A stretch of DNA of 64,000 bases from the NCBI GenBank assembly GCA_000004695.1, contig CM000150.2:3328001-3392000 (forward strand), in the 5' to 3' direction. The notes under the pieces are model-generated. The model was not told the origin of the DNA. It saw only the letters and a program-made list of their open reading frames with translations, and did no database searches. This stretch comes from Dictyostelium discoideum. Lineage: Eukaryota. Of the stretch, positions 2,425 through 63,068 are shown piece after piece (position 1 is the first letter of the stretch; each line of letters starts with the position of its first letter). The translations under genes and the position numbers were made by a program.

Positions 2425-3198
2425 ATGTTGAATAATTTAATTAATAAAAGATTATTTACTTTAAATAATACAAAGAAATTATTTTTAAATTCTCAACCAA
2501 AATTATATAGTTATAGTAATAAAAACAGACTTTTTTCAACAAATTCAACAAATTCAACAAACCCAACAAATTCAACAAATCCAACAAATCCAACAAACCC
2601 AACAAATTCAACAAATCCAACAAACTCAGCAAACTCAACAAATAATAATGATGAATATGAAGATAGAAATTATGATGAATATATTAAAAAAGGAATTTTT
2701 TTAGAAGATGATGATGGACAAACAAGAATGTATAAAATCTTAAAACATAAAATGCGTGAGACAGAAAAGGAACTTAGAGAAGGATTAAAAATGAGTGATG
2801 AAGAATTTTTTAAAGGTAAATCATCATCAAAACAAATTTTCCTTAGTAGACATGGCACAATTACATTGGCAGTGACATTAGCAATTTTCACAGCAACTGC
2901 AATGTTCTTTTATTTTGGAAAGAGAAAACACATTTTATTATCACAACAAGTCGATTATCATACAACTGCAATCACCAATGAATTAAATCAATTAACAAGT
3001 GATAATCAAAAAATTTACGATTCTTTATCTTCCTCTCAAAATCAAGATCAATTAATAACTTTATTAATTGATAAAATCTTAATTGAAAAAGGTATTCTCA
3101 ATAATAATAATAATAATAATAAATCAATAACCCCAGCTGAATTAAATAAAATAAAATCAGAATTAAAATCAATAATTGTAAATAGTATTAATAAATAA
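2425..3198 (+). CDS. Hypothetical single-pass membrane protein with a presequence-like N-terminus (257 aa)
   Basis: Basic, hydroxylated N-terminus (MLNNLINKRLFTLNNTKKLF...RLFS) that resembles a mitochondrial presequence. (STNPTN)n repeat, one predicted TM helix (TLAVTLAIFTATAMFFYFG) and a coiled-coil-like C-terminus. No family recognised. Confidence 0.4.
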   Translation: MLNNLINKRLFTLNNTKKLFLNSQPKLYSYSNKNRLFSTNSTNSTNPTNSTNPTNPTNPTNSTNPTNSANSTNNNDEYEDRNYDEYIKKGIFLEDDDGQTRMYKILKHKMRETEKELREGLKMSDEEFFKGKSSSKQIFLSRHGTITLAVTLAIFTATAMFFYFGKRKHILLSQQVDYHTTAITNELNQLTSDNQKIYDSLSSSQNQDQLITLLIDKILIEKGILNNNNNNNKSITPAELNKIKSELKSIIVNSINK

Positions 3199-47139: not shown

Positions 47140-50478
<3,339 letters not shown>

Positions 50479-50514
50479 TTTTTTTTTTTTTTTTTTTTTT
50501 TCTTTTTTTTATTT

Positions 50515-50547
<33 letters not shown>

Positions 50548-50598
50548 AAAGAATTAAACTGTGGAAATAATAAAATAAATTTAATTTTGGTTAAAAAA

Positions 50599-50634
<36 letters not shown>

Positions 50635-51645
50635 AAAATAAAGGAATATTTTATAAAATTGAGCGGGAAAAAAACGAATTAATTTTTGTCTAAAGGCAGA
50701 GAATTATTTTTTTTTTTCTTTTTTTTTGTTTTTTTTTTTTTTTTTATTATTTAAATGTGAAAATAGTAAGTTATCATTACTATTTTTGTATTTTGTTTTC
50801 AGGTGACTAAAAATAAAAAAAATTATTTTTAATTATAAAATAATAAGAAAATGATTAAAAAGAAATAAAAATAAAAAATAAAATAAAAATAAAAACAAAA
50901 AAAAAAAAAATAACCAGAACAAATGAGATATTTGTTTTCTTTTTTTTTTTTTTTTTTTTTTTTATTAATTAATTAATTTACTCTAAATTTTTTTGTTTTT
51001 TCCTTTTTTTTTATTATTATTATTATTTTTTAATTTTTTTTTTTTTTTTTTACTGATATTTTCAAAAAAATTTCTTAATCGAAATTTGATTGTATTTTGG
51101 TTTTAATTATAACCCATTATAATAAAAATCTAATTATCTTTCGATATGCCCAAAAATTTTTTTATTTTTTTTTTTTTCAATTTTTTTTATTTTTTTTATT
51201 TTTTTTTTTATTTTTTATTTTTTTTTTCAAAAACTTTTTTTTTTTAAATTTTTTTAATTTTTTTTTTATATTTTTATAATCACCTGATTTCTGTTGTATT
51301 TTTAATCATTATTTATTTATTTATTTATTTCAACAAAAAAAGAATTCAGTTTTTTTTTTTTTTTTTTTAAATATCACATTATATAAAAAAATAAAAAAAA
51401 ACTATTTCATTTGTAATACAACACAAACAACACTTTTACCACCCAACAATATATTTATTGAAATTTTTTAAATAAATTTCAAAACTAAATTAAAAAAAAA
51501 AAAAAAACCACACCACAACGATAAAATATAATTATTCTAAAAGCGTTTAGATAATATATATTTAATACACCAAATATAAATAAAAATCAATTTGTAAATC
51601 AGCTTGATAAAACAACACCCACACATATATATATACATATATCAA

Positions 51646-52666
51646 ATGCCACCACCCCCACCACCACCACCTAAAGCACCACCACCCCCAGCAGCTCCAC
51701 CAAAAACTGCTGAAAGAGGTGCTTTACTCAGTTCAATTCAAAAGGGTTCAAAATTAAAAAAAACAGTCACTGTAGATAAATCTGGTCCAGTTTTAACAGG
51801 TATGTAAATCATAAATTTTCAATTATGAAAATAATTAAATTCAAGGAATGAATGAATGAATAAATTACTTATTTTATATTTTTATTTTTTTAAAATTTAA
51901 AGCACCAAAACCATCAGGAGGTGGAGGTATGCCAACTCCAGGTGGAGGAGGTATGCCAAGACCAGGAGGTGGTTCATCAGGAGGTGGTGCACCAGGTCCA
52001 CAATTGGGTGGATTATTTTCAGGAGGTATGCCACAATTGAAACCATCAGGTGGAACATTGAAAAAAGCTGCACCACCACCAATGATGGCACCAGTTCAAG
52101 CTGCCCCACCATCCTATGGTAAACCATCAGCACCAACTCCATCATTTAAAGCACCACCAACCGCTTCACCACCAGCATTCAAAGCACCACCACCATTCAA
52201 GGCACCACCAACCGCCACACCACCAACACCAACTCCATCATTTAAAGCACCACCAACCGCTGCACCACCAGCTTTCAAAGCTCAACCAGCACCACCACCA
52301 TCATTTGGAGGCGGTCCAAAACCAGCACCACCACCAGCAAGACCACCACCACCACCATCAAGAGCTCCATCATCATCTGGTGGTGATGATTCACAAGCAT
52401 TAAGAGACCAAATCTCTCAATTGGAACAACAAGTTAGAGATTATCAAAATAAAGTTCGTCAACTTGAATCTGATTTGGCTGCCGCTAAAAAATCATCTTC
52501 AGGTACTGGTAAGAAAGCTGTTGCTCTCTACGAATATTCTTCAAATGAACCAGGTGATATCAACTTTAAAGCTGGCCAAAATATTGATATTATCTCTGTC
52601 GAAGGTGATTGGTCAACCGGTAGAATAGAGGGTGTATTCCCAACCAATTATACAAAACTTCTTTAA
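51646..52666 (+). CDS. Actin-regulatory adaptor with N-terminal polyproline + WH2 motif, proline-rich core, coiled coil and C-terminal SH3 domain (about 306 aa)
   Basis: Two exons: join(51646..51799, 51903..52666). Donor G|GTATGT, acceptor tttaaAG, phase 1. Exon 1 reads MPPPPPPPPKAPPPPAAPPKTAERGALLSSIQKGSKLKKTVTVDKSGPVLT, where RGALLSSIQKGSKLKKT matches a WH2/verprolin motif. SH3 domain ALYEYSSNEPGDINFKAGQNIDIISVEGDWSTGRIEGVFPTNYTKLL. Confidence 0.75.
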
Positions 52667-52888
52667 TTAATATAAAAAAAAAAAAAAAACGATTTTCAAA
52701 AATACACCTTATAAATAAATATTTGTTTTGTATAATAAAAAAAAAAAAAATAAAAAAAAAAATAAAAAAATTCAAACTTTTAAAAAATATCTATTTTTAA
52801 ATTTTATTTTGGTAATATATATATATATATTATTTATATATTTAAAATATCATTTGACAAAATTTATCATCACCCTGGGAATTTAAGA

Positions 52889-52929
<41 letters not shown>

Positions 52930-53016
52930 CATAAAATTCAAATCCATATTTAAAATAAATATGACAGAATTTAAAACAAGATTTTATGTCTATTAAAATA
53001 TTCTCAAATTTTATTT

Positions 53017-53082
53017 AAACTTTGAGAATATTTTATTTAAACTTTGAGAATATTTTATTTAAACTTTGAGAATATTTTATTT
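53017..53082. repeat. Tandem 22-bp repeat (aaactttgagaatattttattt) in three copies, preceded by one inverted degenerate copy at 52995-53016
   Basis: Directly visible. It lies about 250 bp upstream of the Cys-rich secreted protein gene and next to a GC-richer island. Confidence 0.85.
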
Positions 53083-53177
53083 AAACTTTTAAATAATAAA
53101 AAGTTTTTTATTCAAAGTTAAATGTCTATTTGCTTTTCAAAGAGTTTCAGTCAGAATATGGGATCAAGGGGAATTTT

Positions 53178-53185
53178 TTGTGGGT
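53178..53185 (-). promoter_or_regulatory. Candidate DUSE (Dictyostelium upstream sequence element) motif ACCCACAA on the minus strand, inside a GC-richer intergenic island (53140-53215)
   Basis: Plus-strand ttgtgggt is the reverse complement of acccacaa. This matches the [AT]CCCA[CT]AA element reported about 60 nt upstream of Dictyostelium ncRNA genes. The surrounding segment gagtttcagtcagaatatgggatcaaggggaa is unusually GC-rich for this intergenic context. Confidence 0.3.
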
Positions 53186-53331
53186 TCCAACCGACCAGGA
53201 TTTTTGATTTTCTATTTTTTTTATTTTATTTTATTTTTTTTTTTTAATTTTATTTTGGCATTTTAGAATTTTATTTTTAACTTTTTTTTATTTTTTTTTT
53301 TTTTATTTTATTTTTAAATTCAAGAAAGAAA

Positions 53332-53447
53332 ATGAGAAGTATTTTATCTTTATTAATTGTTGTAATTTTATCATTTGTTGCTTTATCAAATGCAACCGAT
53401 TGTGGAAAATATAAAAATCCATTGACTTGTGCAAGTAATTATCGCTT

Positions 53448-53491
<44 letters not shown>

Positions 53492-53974
53492 TCCAATTTC
53501 ACTAATATTATTTTATTAAAAATGAAAAGATATGGAACCTCCTTGTGTAATTATTAATTTATAAATAATAAAAATAATAAATAATAATTAATAATATTAA
53601 TAGTAATTAAATAACTAATACAATATCACATTTATTGTTCTTAATTTTAAAATAGTTCTGGGATGGTAAGGTTTGTAAAGAAATTTATCCAAAGAACTGT
53701 GCAGAGATGACAGTTGAGGATTGTGAAAGTAACAAAGAAAAGGGATGTTATTTGGAGGGTGAAAACTGTATTCTCTCAAAATGTAAGTTTTTTACTTTTT
53801 TTATTTTTAATTTATTAACCAGAAATATTAATATTTTTTTTTTTCAAATATTTACCAAAAAAAAAAAAAAAATAAAAAAAAAAAATTTATTTAGTCCATT
53901 GTTCATCAATCCACAATGAATTTGATTGCACCATCGAAAATTGTGCATGGAAAGATGGAAAATGTGAAAATTAA
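53332..53974 (+). CDS. Small secreted cysteine-rich protein (about 107 aa, 4 exons including a 17-nt micro-exon)
   Basis: join(53332..53434, 53530..53546, 53656..53782, 53895..53974). Signal peptide MRSILSLLIVVILSFVALSNA. Mature part TDCGKYKNPLTCA|NMEPPC|FWDGKVCKEIYPKNCAEMTVEDCESNKEKGCYLEGENCILSK|FHCSSIHNEFDCTIENCAWKDGKCEN, with 14 Cys. Donors are GTAATT twice and GTAAGT once. The micro-exon is needed to keep the frame between exon 1 (phase 1) and the Cys-rich exon (phase 0). Confidence 0.5.
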
Positions 53975-54047
53975 ATTCTTTTATTAATTTTTTAACAATA
54001 AATTATTGATGAAATTTTAATCATTTAATTATTATTTTATTTAATTT

Positions 54048-54097
<50 letters not shown>

Positions 54098-54641
54098 ATT
54101 AGATTTAAAAATAAAAATTTAAAATAATATTAGATTTTTAAGTTTTAGTTTTTTATTAGAAATTTGGTTAACTTTCTTCAAGGTATTTTTAAAAAAAAAA
54201 AAAAAAATAAAAAATAAAAAATAATAACTTTTTTTAAAGGTAAAAATAGAAGAAAGAAGGATTTTTTTCTTTTTGAGAGGTTTTATAACTATTAAAAAAA
54301 TAATTATAATTTTTAAAAATGATATGGTGTCAACTTTATGTTTGGCCTGACACTGTTTTATATTTTTTTATGAAAAAAATATTTCAAGTAAAATAATTTT
54401 TTTGTTTTTTTTTTCACAACCAACCGAATTTAATCTCCTGTTATTTGCACCAGATCGTCAAAAAGTAAAAAAAAAAATATTATTTTTCATTGCGATATCC
54501 ATTTCCAAAAAAAAAAAAAAATCAAATGCTAAACAAAGTTTTATTTTAATTTTTAAACTTTTTTTTTTTATTTTACATTTTTTGTAAATGTTAAAAAAAA
54601 AAAAAAACAATCAGTTTAAGAATTTGTTTTTTGTTTTGTAA

Positions 54642-54761
<120 letters not shown>

Positions 54762-55679
54762 GTAATTTAAAATAATTAATAAAAAAAAATTAAACAAAAA
54801 AAAAAAAAAAAAAAAAAAACAAAAAAATCAAATTGAAATATCTATTAATCCAAAGCCAAATTTTTCATTGAAAACCAAAAATTTAAATTCTTTTTTTTTC
54901 AGGTAACCAAGAAAAAAAAAAAAAAAAATATAAAAAAAAAAATTTTGTAAAAAAAAATATAAATTAAATATTTAAATCAAAGCAAATTAAATAAATTAAT
55001 ATATAAATAAATTAAAATTTGAAAATGACAGGTATGATTTCATATATAATTTTTTTTTTTTTTTTTGAAAATAATTAAAATAGTTAAACTAATAATTTTA
55101 CATCCAAAAGAATATATAATTGAAGCAGGAAAATCACAAAAAAATGTTAAAACCAATCCAAACCCATCAGCGACATCAATTAACATAGAAAATTTGAGTA
55201 AAAGTGATGATGGAAGAATTAGAATTATTTCAACAGTGAGTTTGAAAATTTATTTAATTTTTTTTTTTTTTTTAAAAAAATATTAAAAACTAATCAATAT
55301 TTATTTATTTATTTTTTTTTTCTAAATTAAAGTCATTCCCTATGGAAGAGGATTTTATTTCTCCTATTTCCAAAATAACCATTAAAAAAAAATATAATAA
55401 AAATCCAATTGAAATAATGAATTTAGGTACAACAGTTTTAAAAATATCAATTGAATAAAAAATAAAAAAAATAAAAAAAAAAGAAAAAAAATGTTATATA
55501 ATAAATAAAACAAAAATATGTAAAATTAAAAAAAAGGACTGGAAAAAAATAAAATAGTTATCCTTTGTACAATAAATATTAAATAAAAAAAAATTTAACA
55601 AATGTTTAAACTAGTTGTGTTTTTGTATTTTATGTTTTTTTTTTTTTTTTTTATTATTTATTTATTTTGTTTATTATTT

Positions 55680-60102
<4,423 letters not shown>

Positions 60103-62582: not shown

Positions 62583-62646
62583 TCCCACACAACGACCCTG
62601 ACACTGATAGCTTAAATTAATGGAAATACTAAACTAAGGGTGTCAG
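62583..62646 (+). promoter_or_regulatory. GC-richer intergenic island with a DUSE-like motif (TCCCACAC) and a 7-bp inverted repeat (ctgacac...gtgtcag). Possible small ncRNA promoter or gene
   Basis: tatcccacacaacgaccctgacactgatagcttaaattaatggaaatactaaactaagggtgtcagaagctcgtatatag. This stands out from the flanking homopolymer A/T. A TATA-like tatatag follows at 62654-60. Confidence 0.2.
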
Positions 62647-63068
62647 AAGCTCGTATATAGAATAAAAAAAATTAATTATTTTATTTCTTTTTTAGAGATA
62701 ACAAAAAAAAAAAAAAACTCTGTGTGTTAATAAAAATTTGAAAAAACAAAAAACAAAAAAAAAATTCATTTTTTTTTTTAAAAAAAAAAAAAATAAATAA
62801 AAAATAAAAAAATAAAAAAAAAAAAAAAAATGGAAAAAATAAAAAAAAAAAATTCGTGACAAAACGAACCATTCACTGTTAATCAAATATATATATATAT
62901 TAATTGTATAATAATAATTAGTATAACCAAAGCATCAATAATATAAAATATATTTATATACAAAGATTTTCAAAAATTTAATAATAATAATAATAAAAAT
63001 ATAAAAAATAAAAATAAATAAACCATATAAATATAAAAATAAACAAATAATATAGAAATAGATATACA

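What the first reader, a model, noticed from the sequence alone, without database searches (positions are those of the whole stretch)
52995..53215. Intergenic island with an inverted + tandem 22-bp repeat array and a perfect minus-strand DUSE motif: possible ncRNA gene or complex promoter
Between the WH2/SH3 gene and the Cys-rich gene, the otherwise homopolymeric spacer holds two unusual elements. The first is one inverted copy plus three perfect direct copies of aaactttgagaatattttattt (52995-53082). The second is a GC-richer 75-bp block (53140-53215) containing ttgtgggt. That is the reverse complement of the ACCCACAA upstream element found about 60 nt 5' of Dictyostelium snRNA, class I and other ncRNA genes. 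An ncRNA transcribed on the minus strand would start near 53120 and run toward the repeat array.
Basis: partly seen in the sequence, partly recalled or inferred. Interest (0 to 1): 0.5.

Follow-up and report, generated by a model that had tools for sequence, protein, structure and literature searches.

The report
Conserved promoter box, chance DUSE match
The small GC-richer island is most likely an ordinary conserved upstream control element of the neighbouring secreted-protein gene, while the "ncRNA promoter" motif inside it and the 22-bp repeats beside it occur in only some strains of this species and are probably accidents of mutation.

Summary
There are three perfect 22-bp direct copies (53017-53082), a partial inverted copy (52991-53012), a GC-richer island (about 53120-53209) and an exact ACCCACAA on the minus strand (53178-53185).

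The ncRNA reading does not hold. The window is Dictyostelium discoideum, upstream of DDB_G0270922, which encodes a 108-aa secreted 12-Cys protein. I fetched the orthologous loci from other D. discoideum isolates, D. cf. discoideum, D. citrinum, D. dimigraforme, D. firmibasis, D. purpureum and Cavenderia.

- **What is conserved.** Only a bipartite box is conserved: GTCAGAATATGGGATCAAGGGGAA (53150-53173), a 15-21 nt variable spacer, then CCAGGAT (53195-53201). It always sits 109-172 nt upstream of that gene's ATG and stays with the gene after rearrangements.
- **The DUSE 8-mer.** It lies in the variable spacer. It is ACCCAAAA in three other D. discoideum-clade assemblies and is absent in the other species.
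- **The 22-bp array.** It is found only in the window's haplotype.
- **RNA tests.** There is no Rfam hit, no class I features, no TGTG box and no conserved RNA structure on either strand. The island folds worse than shuffled sequence.
- **Background.** Exact DUSE 8-mers occur about once per 10 kb of intergenic DNA.

Best reading: an ordinary conserved cis-regulatory element, a chance derived SNP, and a haplotype-specific minisatellite. Interest is low.

The parts
53150..53173 (+). Conserved box 1, GTCAGAATATGGGATCAAGGGGAA. The invariant positions are GT, GGGA.C and GGGA.
   Evidence: Alignment A2 covers 8 haplotypes from 4 species plus D. cf. discoideum. A single-sequence nhmmer search hits only the syntenic spot in D. 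citrinum, D. firmibasis and D. dimigraforme. The GGGATC core that opens box 1 (53160 in the window) lies 145-172 nt upstream of the ATG in all of them.
53174..53194 (+). Variable spacer of 15-21 nt between the two conserved boxes. In this haplotype it carries the DUSE-like 8-mer and CCAACCGA.
   Evidence: The spacer sequence and length are not conserved between species. Its lengths are not multiples of three, so it is not coding.
53178..53185 (-). Exact ACCCACAA, a match to the DUSE consensus. Judged a chance, derived variant.
   Evidence: Located. It reads ACCCAAAA in L009, L010 and L011, and is absent in L003-L006.
53195..53201 (+). Conserved box 2, CCAGGAT. It is invariant in all 8 aligned haplotypes and is followed by a T-rich run.
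   Evidence: A possible inverted copy, ACCAGGATTT, lies about 190 nt upstream of the D. purpureum orthologue, but the hit is not significant (E = 3.4).
53017..53082 (+). Three perfect tandem copies of the 22-bp unit AAACTTTGAGAATATTTTATTT. TRF places the array at 53008-53089 with 3.7 copies. It is a haplotype-specific minisatellite.
   Evidence: The array is present only in the window and L002/L012. In L009-L011 it is replaced by about 125 nt of single-copy sequence, and it is absent from D. citrinum and the other species.
52991..53012 (-). Partial inverted copy of the repeat unit, with a 15-nt perfect core at 52996-53010. It forms a 15-bp AU-rich hairpin with the first direct copy.
   Evidence: The left arm, tattaaaatattc(c/t)caaa, pre-exists in L010, which has no array.
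53083..53122 (.). Short 8-bp palindrome, AAACTTTT...AAAAGTTT (53083-53106), and a weak second inverted partial unit, attcaaagttaaa (53110-53122). Conserved only within D. discoideum.
   Evidence: Read directly.
53332..53974 (+). DDB_G0270922, the gene the island most likely regulates. It has four exons (53332-53434, 53530-53546, 53656-53782, 53895-53974) and encodes a 108-aa secreted 12-Cys protein conserved across Dictyostelia.
   Evidence: The gene was called in L002/L012. The exact 108-aa product is on record and is named.

Best explanation
The GC-richer island is a conserved upstream cis-regulatory element of the downstream gene DDB_G0270922, which encodes a small secreted cysteine-rich protein. 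It has two sequence-constrained boxes, GTCAGAATATGGGATCAAGGGGAA and CCAGGAT, separated by a freely evolving spacer of 15-21 nt. The boxes sit about 110-170 nt upstream of the ATG.

I infer, but have not shown, three things. The boxes are bound as double-stranded DNA by one or more sequence-specific transcription factors. Those factors control when or where the gene is transcribed. Transcription starts after the long T-run, about 20-40 nt before the ATG.

The exact ACCCACAA on the minus strand is a by-product. A single T-to-G change in a T-run of the unconstrained spacer, in this haplotype only, happens to spell the DUSE consensus. The 22-bp array is a recent, haplotype-specific tandem duplication built from local AT-rich sequence. 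It has no conserved role.
For: **Shown**
1. Between 52710 and 53300, the island is the only stretch with detectable similarity to D. citrinum, D. firmibasis and D. dimigraforme (tiled nhmmer).
2. A search with the window's island alone hits only the syntenic site in each species, at E = 0.006-0.013 in about 150 kb.
3. Alignment A2 has 19 invariant columns, clustered in the two boxes. The spacer between them varies in sequence and length.
4. The GGGATC core of box 1 lies 145-172 nt from the ATG, and box 2 ends 109-131 nt from it, in 9 sequences (the window, its duplicate L012 and seven others).
5. The element stays next to the Cys-rich gene when the intergenic region expands to 1.1-1.2 kb. This holds even when D. 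firmibasis has an extra gene between it and the WH2/SH3 gene.
6. There is no conserved reading frame. Spacer lengths are 21, 15, 16 and 20 nt, and the ATG is lost in D. firmibasis and L009.
7. There is no consensus RNA structure or covariation on either strand.
8. The island folds less well than shuffled sequence, with z = +0.8 to +1.7.
9. The exact DUSE and the array are confined to the window/L002 haplotype.
10. Other conserved upstream islands exist nearby, at 51480-51609 and 54400-54549, so this kind of element is ordinary here.

**From established knowledge, inferred**
Dictyostelium promoters typically place GC-richer regulatory boxes within a few hundred bp upstream. An oligo-dT run typically lies just before the transcription start.
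Against: - No expression, TSS or binding data could be consulted, so function as a DNA element is inferred from conservation alone.
- The binding factor is unknown. The GATC core resembles the in-vitro preference reported for the GATA factor GtaC, but this is only a lead.
- Conservation is demonstrated only within the D. discoideum clade. In D. purpureum and C. fasciculata only short motif recurrences (TGGGAT, CCAGG(G)AT) are seen. These are not statistically significant.
- A transcribed but unstructured role, as a 5' leader or short RNA, is not excluded.
Confidence: 0.75

Rival explanations
1. The minus-strand ACCCACAA is a working DUSE. It drives a small ncRNA that starts near 53120 and runs into the repeat array.
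For: - The 8-mer is an exact match to a form that scores well in the published DUSE model (FIMO 11.97, against 13.9 for the best).
- It is the only intergenic DUSE-type match in the 64-kb window.
- DUSE normally sits about 60 nt upstream of ncRNA starts.
Against: - The C at position 6 is specific to one haplotype. Three other D. discoideum-clade assemblies have ACCCAAAA, a weak form with FIMO 8.6.
- The motif is absent in D. citrinum, D. dimigraforme and D. firmibasis, although both flanking boxes are conserved.
- The predicted transcript region has 12-15% GC and a T5 run at 53098-53102 about 20 nt after the predicted start.
- There is no TGTG box at +60, no CTTACAGC or GTTGA class I features, and no Rfam hit at E <= 10.
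- That region is replaced by unrelated sequence in other isolates and is unconserved between species.
- Exact DUSE 8-mers occur about once per 9-13 kb of intergenic DNA.
- In the published screen, two weak class I candidates with an ACCCACAA upstream, 76 and 41 nt from the predicted start (outside the 57-75 nt seen for most expressed genes), had zero reads.
Confidence: 0.04
2. The conserved island is transcribed on the plus strand and acts as RNA. It could be the start of a long 5' leader of DDB_G0270922, or a short unstructured clade-specific RNA ending at the T-run after CCAGGAT.
For: - The box order and orientation are fixed in all four close species.
- A T-rich run follows CCAGGAT in each species.
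- The conservation evidence is the same as for the DNA-element model.
Against: - There is no consensus structure or covariation, and the sequence folds worse than shuffles.
- No DUSE lies about 60 nt upstream on the plus strand in any species.
- T-runs are everywhere in these spacers, so the 'terminator' carries no information.
- The T-rich 110-130 nt between the island and the ATG looks like the usual pre-TSS oligo-dT region, not an A-rich Dictyostelium leader (established knowledge).
- The possible inverted CCAGGATTT in D. purpureum would fit a DNA site better (weak).
Confidence: 0.12
3. The 22-bp array, with its flanking inverted copies, is a functional multimerised binding site. On this reading it changes expression of DDB_G0270922 in this strain. 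Alternatively, it is a hairpin small-RNA precursor.
For: - There are five TTTGA(G)AAT cores in a <- -> -> -> <- arrangement.
- TTGA-containing repeats are reminiscent of STAT-type sites in Dictyostelium promoters. This is from memory and was not tested.
- The hairpin is far more stable than shuffles, with z = -7.4 and -5.9.
Against: - The array is present only in the window/L002 haplotype. Other D. discoideum isolates and all other species lack it.
- The perfect identity of the copies indicates a very recent duplication, not selection.
- The hairpin stem is only 15 AU-rich bp and follows by construction from the inverted copy.
- The sequence is not found in the supplementary file of the D. discoideum miRNA survey that is held as text.
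Confidence: 0.08

Closest known systems
DUSE (Dictyostelium upstream sequence element) promoters of class I RNAs, snRNAs and other small ncRNA genes
   Same: An exact 8-mer, ACCCACAA, fits the consensus [AT]CCCA[CT]AA. It lies in an intergenic region of D. discoideum.
   Different: - No RNA gene, TGTG box or class I features lie about 60 nt downstream.
- The motif is polymorphic within the species and is not conserved in sister species.
- Published work reports DUSE sequence and position as highly conserved across Dictyostelia.
- The motif is embedded in a GC-richer block that is conserved for other reasons.
GC-richer upstream regulatory boxes of Dictyostelium protein-coding promoters, such as G-box/CA-rich elements bound by GBF and GATA-type sites (GtaC prefers GATC in vitro)
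   Same: - It is a short GC-richer island in otherwise extremely AT-rich upstream DNA.
- It sits 100-200 nt before the ATG and is followed by a T-run.
- It is conserved in sequence but not in RNA structure.
- It contains G-triplets and a GATC core.
   Different: - The sequence GTCAGAATATGGGATCAAGGGGAA...CCAGGAT is not a described element, and no factor has been assigned.
- Its activity is untested.
- The TGTGGGT that most resembles a GBF half-site is the non-conserved part.
AT-rich minisatellites or tandem-duplication polymorphisms in Dictyostelium intergenic DNA
   Same: - It has perfect head-to-tail copies of a 22-bp AT-rich unit.
- It shows presence/absence polymorphism between isolates.
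- It is built from pre-existing flanking sequence.
   Different: One flanking inverted partial copy gives it a hairpin-forming geometry. This is unusual but can be explained by the pre-existing left-arm sequence.

Membership tests
DUSE-dependent small ncRNA gene | An 8-mer matching [AT]CCCA[CT]AA | tested here: met
   ACCCACAA lies at 53178-53185 on the minus strand. This holds only in the window/L002 haplotype. Other isolates have ACCCAAAA.
DUSE-dependent small ncRNA gene | The DUSE lies about 60 nt (57-75 for most expressed D. discoideum class I genes; DdR-56 and DdR-32 are at 87-88) upstream of the mature RNA start or of a TGTG box (AAATGTG) | tested here: not met
   No AAATGTG lies on the minus strand near 53110-53125. 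The sequence there has 12-15% GC and a T5 run about 20 nt downstream. Distances are taken from the published tables.
DUSE-dependent small ncRNA gene | The DUSE and the downstream RNA are conserved in related dictyostelids | tested here: not met
   The motif is absent at the homologous position in D. citrinum, D. dimigraforme and D. firmibasis. The downstream region is unconserved.
DUSE-dependent small ncRNA gene | A discrete small RNA is detected by northern blot or RNA-seq | not testable with these tools
   No read data are available.
Class I RNA | The conserved 11-nt motif (CCTTACAGCAA, core CTTACAGC) next to a 5' stem | tested here: not met
   CTTACAGC has 0 matches in the whole window.
Class I RNA | A 5' G plus a short terminal stem (GTTGA... 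in D. discoideum), a 3' CUGU, and a length of 42-65 nt at GC well above intergenic | tested here: not met
   The minus strand from 53125 to 52990 was read directly. It has no GTTGA and no stem/CUGU arrangement, and its GC is 12-15%.
Any Rfam family (snRNA, snoRNA, SRP, RNase P/MRP, miRNA and others) | A covariance-model match | tested here: not met
   There are no hits at the gathering threshold in the window. The only hit in 52650-53350 at E <= 10 is an irrelevant lncRNA match at E = 0.92. Nothing relevant appears at E <= 1 window-wide. ARAGORN finds no tRNA.
Structured ncRNA (unclassified) | A thermodynamically unusual fold and/or compensatory base changes across orthologues | tested here: not met
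   The island gives z = +0.8 to +1.7. RNAalifold gives -1.33 kcal/mol on the plus strand and 0 on the minus strand, with 0 compensatory pairs.
Conserved promoter-proximal cis-regulatory element | Sequence conservation above the neutral flanks in orthologous loci | tested here: met
Conserved promoter-proximal cis-regulatory element | A fixed position relative to the regulated gene, kept after neighbouring rearrangements | tested here: met
   It lies 109-172 nt from the ATG in 9 sequences. It stays with the Cys-rich gene despite an inserted gene in D. firmibasis and a 1.1-kb spacer in D. dimigraforme.
Conserved promoter-proximal cis-regulatory element | Not explained by coding potential | tested here: met
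   Spacer lengths of 21, 15, 16 and 20 nt break any reading frame. The ATG is not conserved. The 41-aa ORF has no Pfam hit.
Conserved promoter-proximal cis-regulatory element | Factor binding, and an effect on transcription when mutated | not testable with these tools
   This needs reporter, EMSA or ChIP experiments.
Minisatellite / tandem-duplication polymorphism | Head-to-tail near-identical copies, with presence or copy number varying between individuals | tested here: met
   There are 3.7 perfect copies. The array is present in the window and L002/L012. It is absent in L009, L010, L011 and in all other species.

The most novel reading that the evidence does not exclude
In the laboratory-strain haplotype, a single T-to-G change created a perfect DUSE inside a conserved promoter box. 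This may have given birth to a new, strain-specific minus-strand transcript running into a newly formed hairpin and repeat array. That would be a snapshot of de novo origin of an ncRNA promoter. A milder version is that the conserved bipartite box is the binding site of a still undescribed Dictyostelium transcription factor specific to the D. discoideum clade.
Probability: 0.04. Interest if true: 0.5.

Novelty: new member of a known kind. Interest (0 to 1): 0.15.

Why it matters
It matters little beyond annotation, for three reasons.

- It shows that a lone DUSE 8-mer is a poor predictor of an ncRNA gene in this genome. The background is about one per 10 kb of intergenic DNA.
- Comparison with the newly available close relatives (D. 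citrinum, D. dimigraforme, D. firmibasis) and with other isolates quickly separates constrained promoter boxes from neutral sequence.
- The conserved box (53150-53173 plus 53195-53201) is a concrete, testable regulatory element for a dictyostelid-wide secreted Cys-rich protein of unknown function.

Tried and rejected
- **tRNA or B-box remnant.** GTGGGTTCCAACC resembles a T-arm. However, ARAGORN finds nothing, there is no Rfam tRNA hit at E <= 10, and that part is not conserved.
- **Small coding exon or uORF.** The candidate is the 41-aa ORF at 53122-53247. It has no Pfam hit, and neither the frame nor the ATG is conserved.
- **Box C/D or H/ACA snoRNA.** No C/D boxes are visible on either strand by reading, and there are no Rfam hits.
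- **miRNA hairpin from the inverted plus direct copy.** The stem is only 15 bp and is haplotype-specific. The sequence is absent from the one supplementary file of the miRNA survey that is held as text.
- **P. violaceum orthologue of the WH2/SH3 gene (L001).** The downstream neighbour differs and nothing is alignable.
- **blastn with permissive scoring.** It was swamped by low-complexity AT matches, so I replaced it with nhmmer.
- **Metagenome scans.**
  - The D. discoideum-specific 22-mer gave 0 hits.
  - The degenerate box-1 pattern gave 65 hits. None extends into box 2, and the number is near chance expectation by my own rough estimate.
- **Literature.** A search for DDB_G0270922 returned no papers.
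  - The AX4 115-aa model is not on record.
- **Published class I candidates.** I could not tell whether either of the two unexpressed candidates with ACCCACAA upstream is this locus. The supplement gives no coordinates for them.

Full report
**1. What is in the sequence**

The region between the stop codon of a WH2/SH3 gene (52666) and the ATG of a Cys-rich gene (53332) is extremely AT-rich. Within it:
- Three perfect 22-bp copies of AAACTTTGAGAATATTTTATTT lie at 53017-53082. TRF reports 3.7 copies with 100% matches at 53008-53089.
- An inverted partial copy lies at 52991-53012, with 3 mismatches and a 15-nt perfect core. It forms a 15-bp hairpin with the first direct copy.
- A short 8-bp palindrome (53083-53106) and a weak second inverted fragment (53110-53122) follow.
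- A GC-richer island spans about 53100-53209, at GC 0.35-0.40 against 0.05-0.15 in the flanks.
- ACCCACAA lies on the minus strand at 53178-53185.

An independent assembly reproduces everything except homopolymer lengths.

**2. Where the window comes from**

- The 1112-aa ORF at 47140-50478 is found exactly in NCBI assembly GCA_054883475.1.
- The downstream gene encodes a 108-aa secreted protein with 12 cysteines in four exons (53332-53434, 53530-53546, 53656-53782, 53895-53974).
- Its exact product is on record as a D. discoideum protein. It clusters with AX4 DDB_G0270922.
- The protein is conserved from D. discoideum to Cavenderia fasciculata. Pfam has no family for it.

**3. Direct tests of the ncRNA idea**

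- ARAGORN finds no tRNA.
- Rfam gives no hit at gathering thresholds, no relevant hit at E <= 10 in 52650-53350, and none at E <= 1 window-wide.
- The published criteria for class I RNAs and DUSE genes are: DUSE about 60 nt upstream of the RNA start or of an AAATGTG box, a 5' G with a short terminal stem, the CCTTACAGCAA motif, and a 3' CUGU.
- None of these except the 8-mer is present. CTTACAGC has 0 matches in the window, and no TGTG box lies at the right place or strand.
- The minus-strand sequence from about 53125 downward has 12-15% GC, with a T5 run about 20 nt after the predicted start.
- The island itself folds less well than shuffled sequence on both strands, with z = +0.8 to +1.7.
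- The only well-folding piece is the hairpin, which follows by construction from the inverted repeat.

**4. Comparative evidence**

This is the decisive part. Homologues of the Cys-rich protein let me fetch the orthologous loci:
- D. citrinum, two assemblies (L003, L004)
- D. firmibasis (L005)
- D. dimigraforme (L006)
- D. purpureum (L007)
- C. fasciculata (L008)
- D. cf. discoideum (L009)
- Two further D. discoideum assemblies (L010, L011); a third, L012, is the L002 assembly again and carries the window's haplotype

The WH2/SH3 to Cys-rich gene order is kept in the D. discoideum clade.

*Conservation of the island*
- Tiled nhmmer searches of 50300-55900 against D. citrinum, D. firmibasis and D. 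dimigraforme show exons and a few non-coding islands as conserved.
- Between 52710 and 53300 the only conserved stretch is 53120-53209.
- The window's island alone, used as query, hits only the syntenic site in each species at E = 0.006-0.013.

*Anatomy of the element (alignment A2)*
- Box 1 is GTCAGAATATGGGATCAAGGGGAA (53150-53173).
- The spacer is 15-21 nt and varies freely in sequence.
- Box 2 is the invariant CCAGGAT (53195-53201).

*Position*
- The GGGATC core of box 1 lies 145-172 nt upstream of the ATG, and box 2 ends 109-131 nt upstream, in all nine sequences measured.
- The element stays beside the Cys-rich gene where the intergenic region has grown to 1.1-1.2 kb. This holds in D. firmibasis, where an extra 77-aa gene lies between it and the WH2/SH3 gene.

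*Coding and structure*
- Spacer lengths of 21, 15, 16 and 20 nt, and loss of the ATG in two lineages, rule out coding.
- RNAalifold finds no consensus structure and no compensatory changes on either strand.

**5. The DUSE match in that light**

- The 8-mer lies in the unconstrained spacer.
- It is ACCCACAA only in the window and the L002/L012 assembly.
- L009, L010 and L011 read ACCCAAAA, an uninterrupted T-run on the plus strand. By parsimony the G at 53180 is therefore a derived single-base change.
- D. citrinum, D. dimigraforme and D. firmibasis have nothing resembling it there.
- In the supplementary tables of Kjellin et al. 2021 (PMC7919456), real D. discoideum DUSEs are mostly TCCCACAA, TCCCATAA or ACCCATAA.
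  - ACCCACAA scores well (FIMO 11.97).
  - Two weak class I candidates with ACCCACAA upstream had zero reads.
  - ACCCAAAA is a weak form (FIMO 8.6), seen at the lowly expressed DdR-56.
- In about 27 kb of non-redundant intergenic DNA from the fetched loci there are three exact [AT]CCCA[CT]AA matches, including this one. That is roughly one per 10 kb.

**6. The 22-bp array**

- It is absent from D. citrinum, whose whole intergenic region is about 400 bp, and from all other species.
- It is also absent from other D. discoideum isolates. They carry about 125 nt of single-copy sequence in its place.
- Those isolates do contain the left-arm sequence and a diverged single version of the unit.
- The perfect identity of the copies, together with this presence/absence polymorphism, marks a very recent tandem duplication.
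- The sequence is not in the supplementary file of the D. discoideum miRNA survey that is held as text. This is weak negative evidence.

**7. Most likely mechanism**

- Shown: the island is a position-locked, sequence-constrained, non-coding element without conserved RNA structure, tied to DDB_G0270922.
- Inferred: it is an upstream transcription-factor binding module acting as DNA. Transcription would start after the oligo-dT run close to the ATG, which is the usual Dictyostelium promoter layout (established knowledge).
- Conserved upstream islands are ordinary in this neighbourhood, for example at 51480-51609 and 54400-54549.
- The factor is unknown. The box contains three RGGA(T/A) repeats and a GATC core.
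- A GATA factor's DNA-binding domain is reported to prefer GATC in vitro (PMC4506546). This is a lead only.
- In D. purpureum a GC-richer patch about 160-210 nt upstream of the orthologue carries TGGGAT and an inverted CCAGGATTT. This would fit orientation-independent DNA sites, but it is not statistically significant.

**8. Rivals**

- A working DUSE RNA in this haplotype: about 0.04.
- A plus-strand transcribed role for the island, as a leader or short RNA: about 0.12.
- A strain-specific regulatory or small-RNA role for the array: about 0.08.

Each could be settled by read mapping and reporter constructs.

**9. Verdict**

The 'DUSE ncRNA' interpretation is not supported. The 'promoter' alternative is supported, but for the two boxes flanking the DUSE-like 8-mer, not for the 8-mer or the repeats. 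This is a new instance of an ordinary kind of element, and interest is low.

Noticed in passing
window 54400-54549: A second conserved non-coding island: AACCAACCGAATwTAATCTC ... TGCACCAGATCGTC ... TCATTGCGATATCC. It is better conserved than the finding's island, with tile E-values of 1.8e-9, 5e-6 and 2.6e-7 against D. citrinum, D. firmibasis and D. dimigraforme. In D. dimigraforme it stays with the downstream gene (exons at about 55026-55440) after a septin gene was inserted. It shares CCAACCGA and ACCAG(G)AT with the D. discoideum spacer of the finding's island, probably by chance.
   Followed up: partly
window 62583-62660: An isolated GC-richer island in a very AT-rich spacer. TCCCACACAA is followed by an inverted repeat (CCTGACAC / GTGTCAGG-like). 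It folds well above shuffles, with z = -4.8 on the minus strand and -2.6 on the plus strand. There is no Rfam hit. No orthologous loci were fetched.
   Followed up: partly
window 54326-54356: A small hairpin, GGTGTCA...TGACAC, followed by TGTTTT. It superficially resembles a class I 3' end, but it has no 11-nt motif and no upstream DUSE, and it is not conserved in the other species.
   Followed up: partly
L005 (D. firmibasis) 3133-3140, minus strand: D. firmibasis has its own exact ACCCACAA in the same intergenic region. It lies about 720 nt upstream of the conserved island, at a non-homologous position, with an ATGGGAT about 80 nt away. No Rfam hit or RNA-like sequence lies downstream. It counts towards the background rate of the motif.
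   Followed up: partly
L005 3315-3648: D. firmibasis carries an extra called gene of 77 aa, with a Gly/Ser-rich region and a poly-Q tail. It lies between the WH2/SH3 gene and the conserved island and is absent in the other species.
   Followed up: no
window about 53245-53262 and orthologous positions: A promoter-proximal box about 75-85 nt before the ATG reads CCGTTGGA in D. citrinum, CAGTTGG in D. firmibasis and CCATTGGC in D. dimigraforme. The first two are the reverse of a Myb-type YAACNG site. The box is degenerate in D. discoideum (TTTTGGCA), whose island spacer instead carries CAACCG, or CAACTG in L009. This may be binding-site turnover, but that is speculative.
   Followed up: no
window 53783-53894 (last intron of DDB_G0270922): The AX4 reference model of DDB_G0270922 (115 aa, XP_646212.1) reads through the last intron into a Lys/Phe-rich tail. 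The 108-aa model, conserved in all orthologues, ends ...FHCSSIHNEFDCTIENCAWKDGKCEN. The reference annotation is probably mis-spliced.
   Followed up: partly
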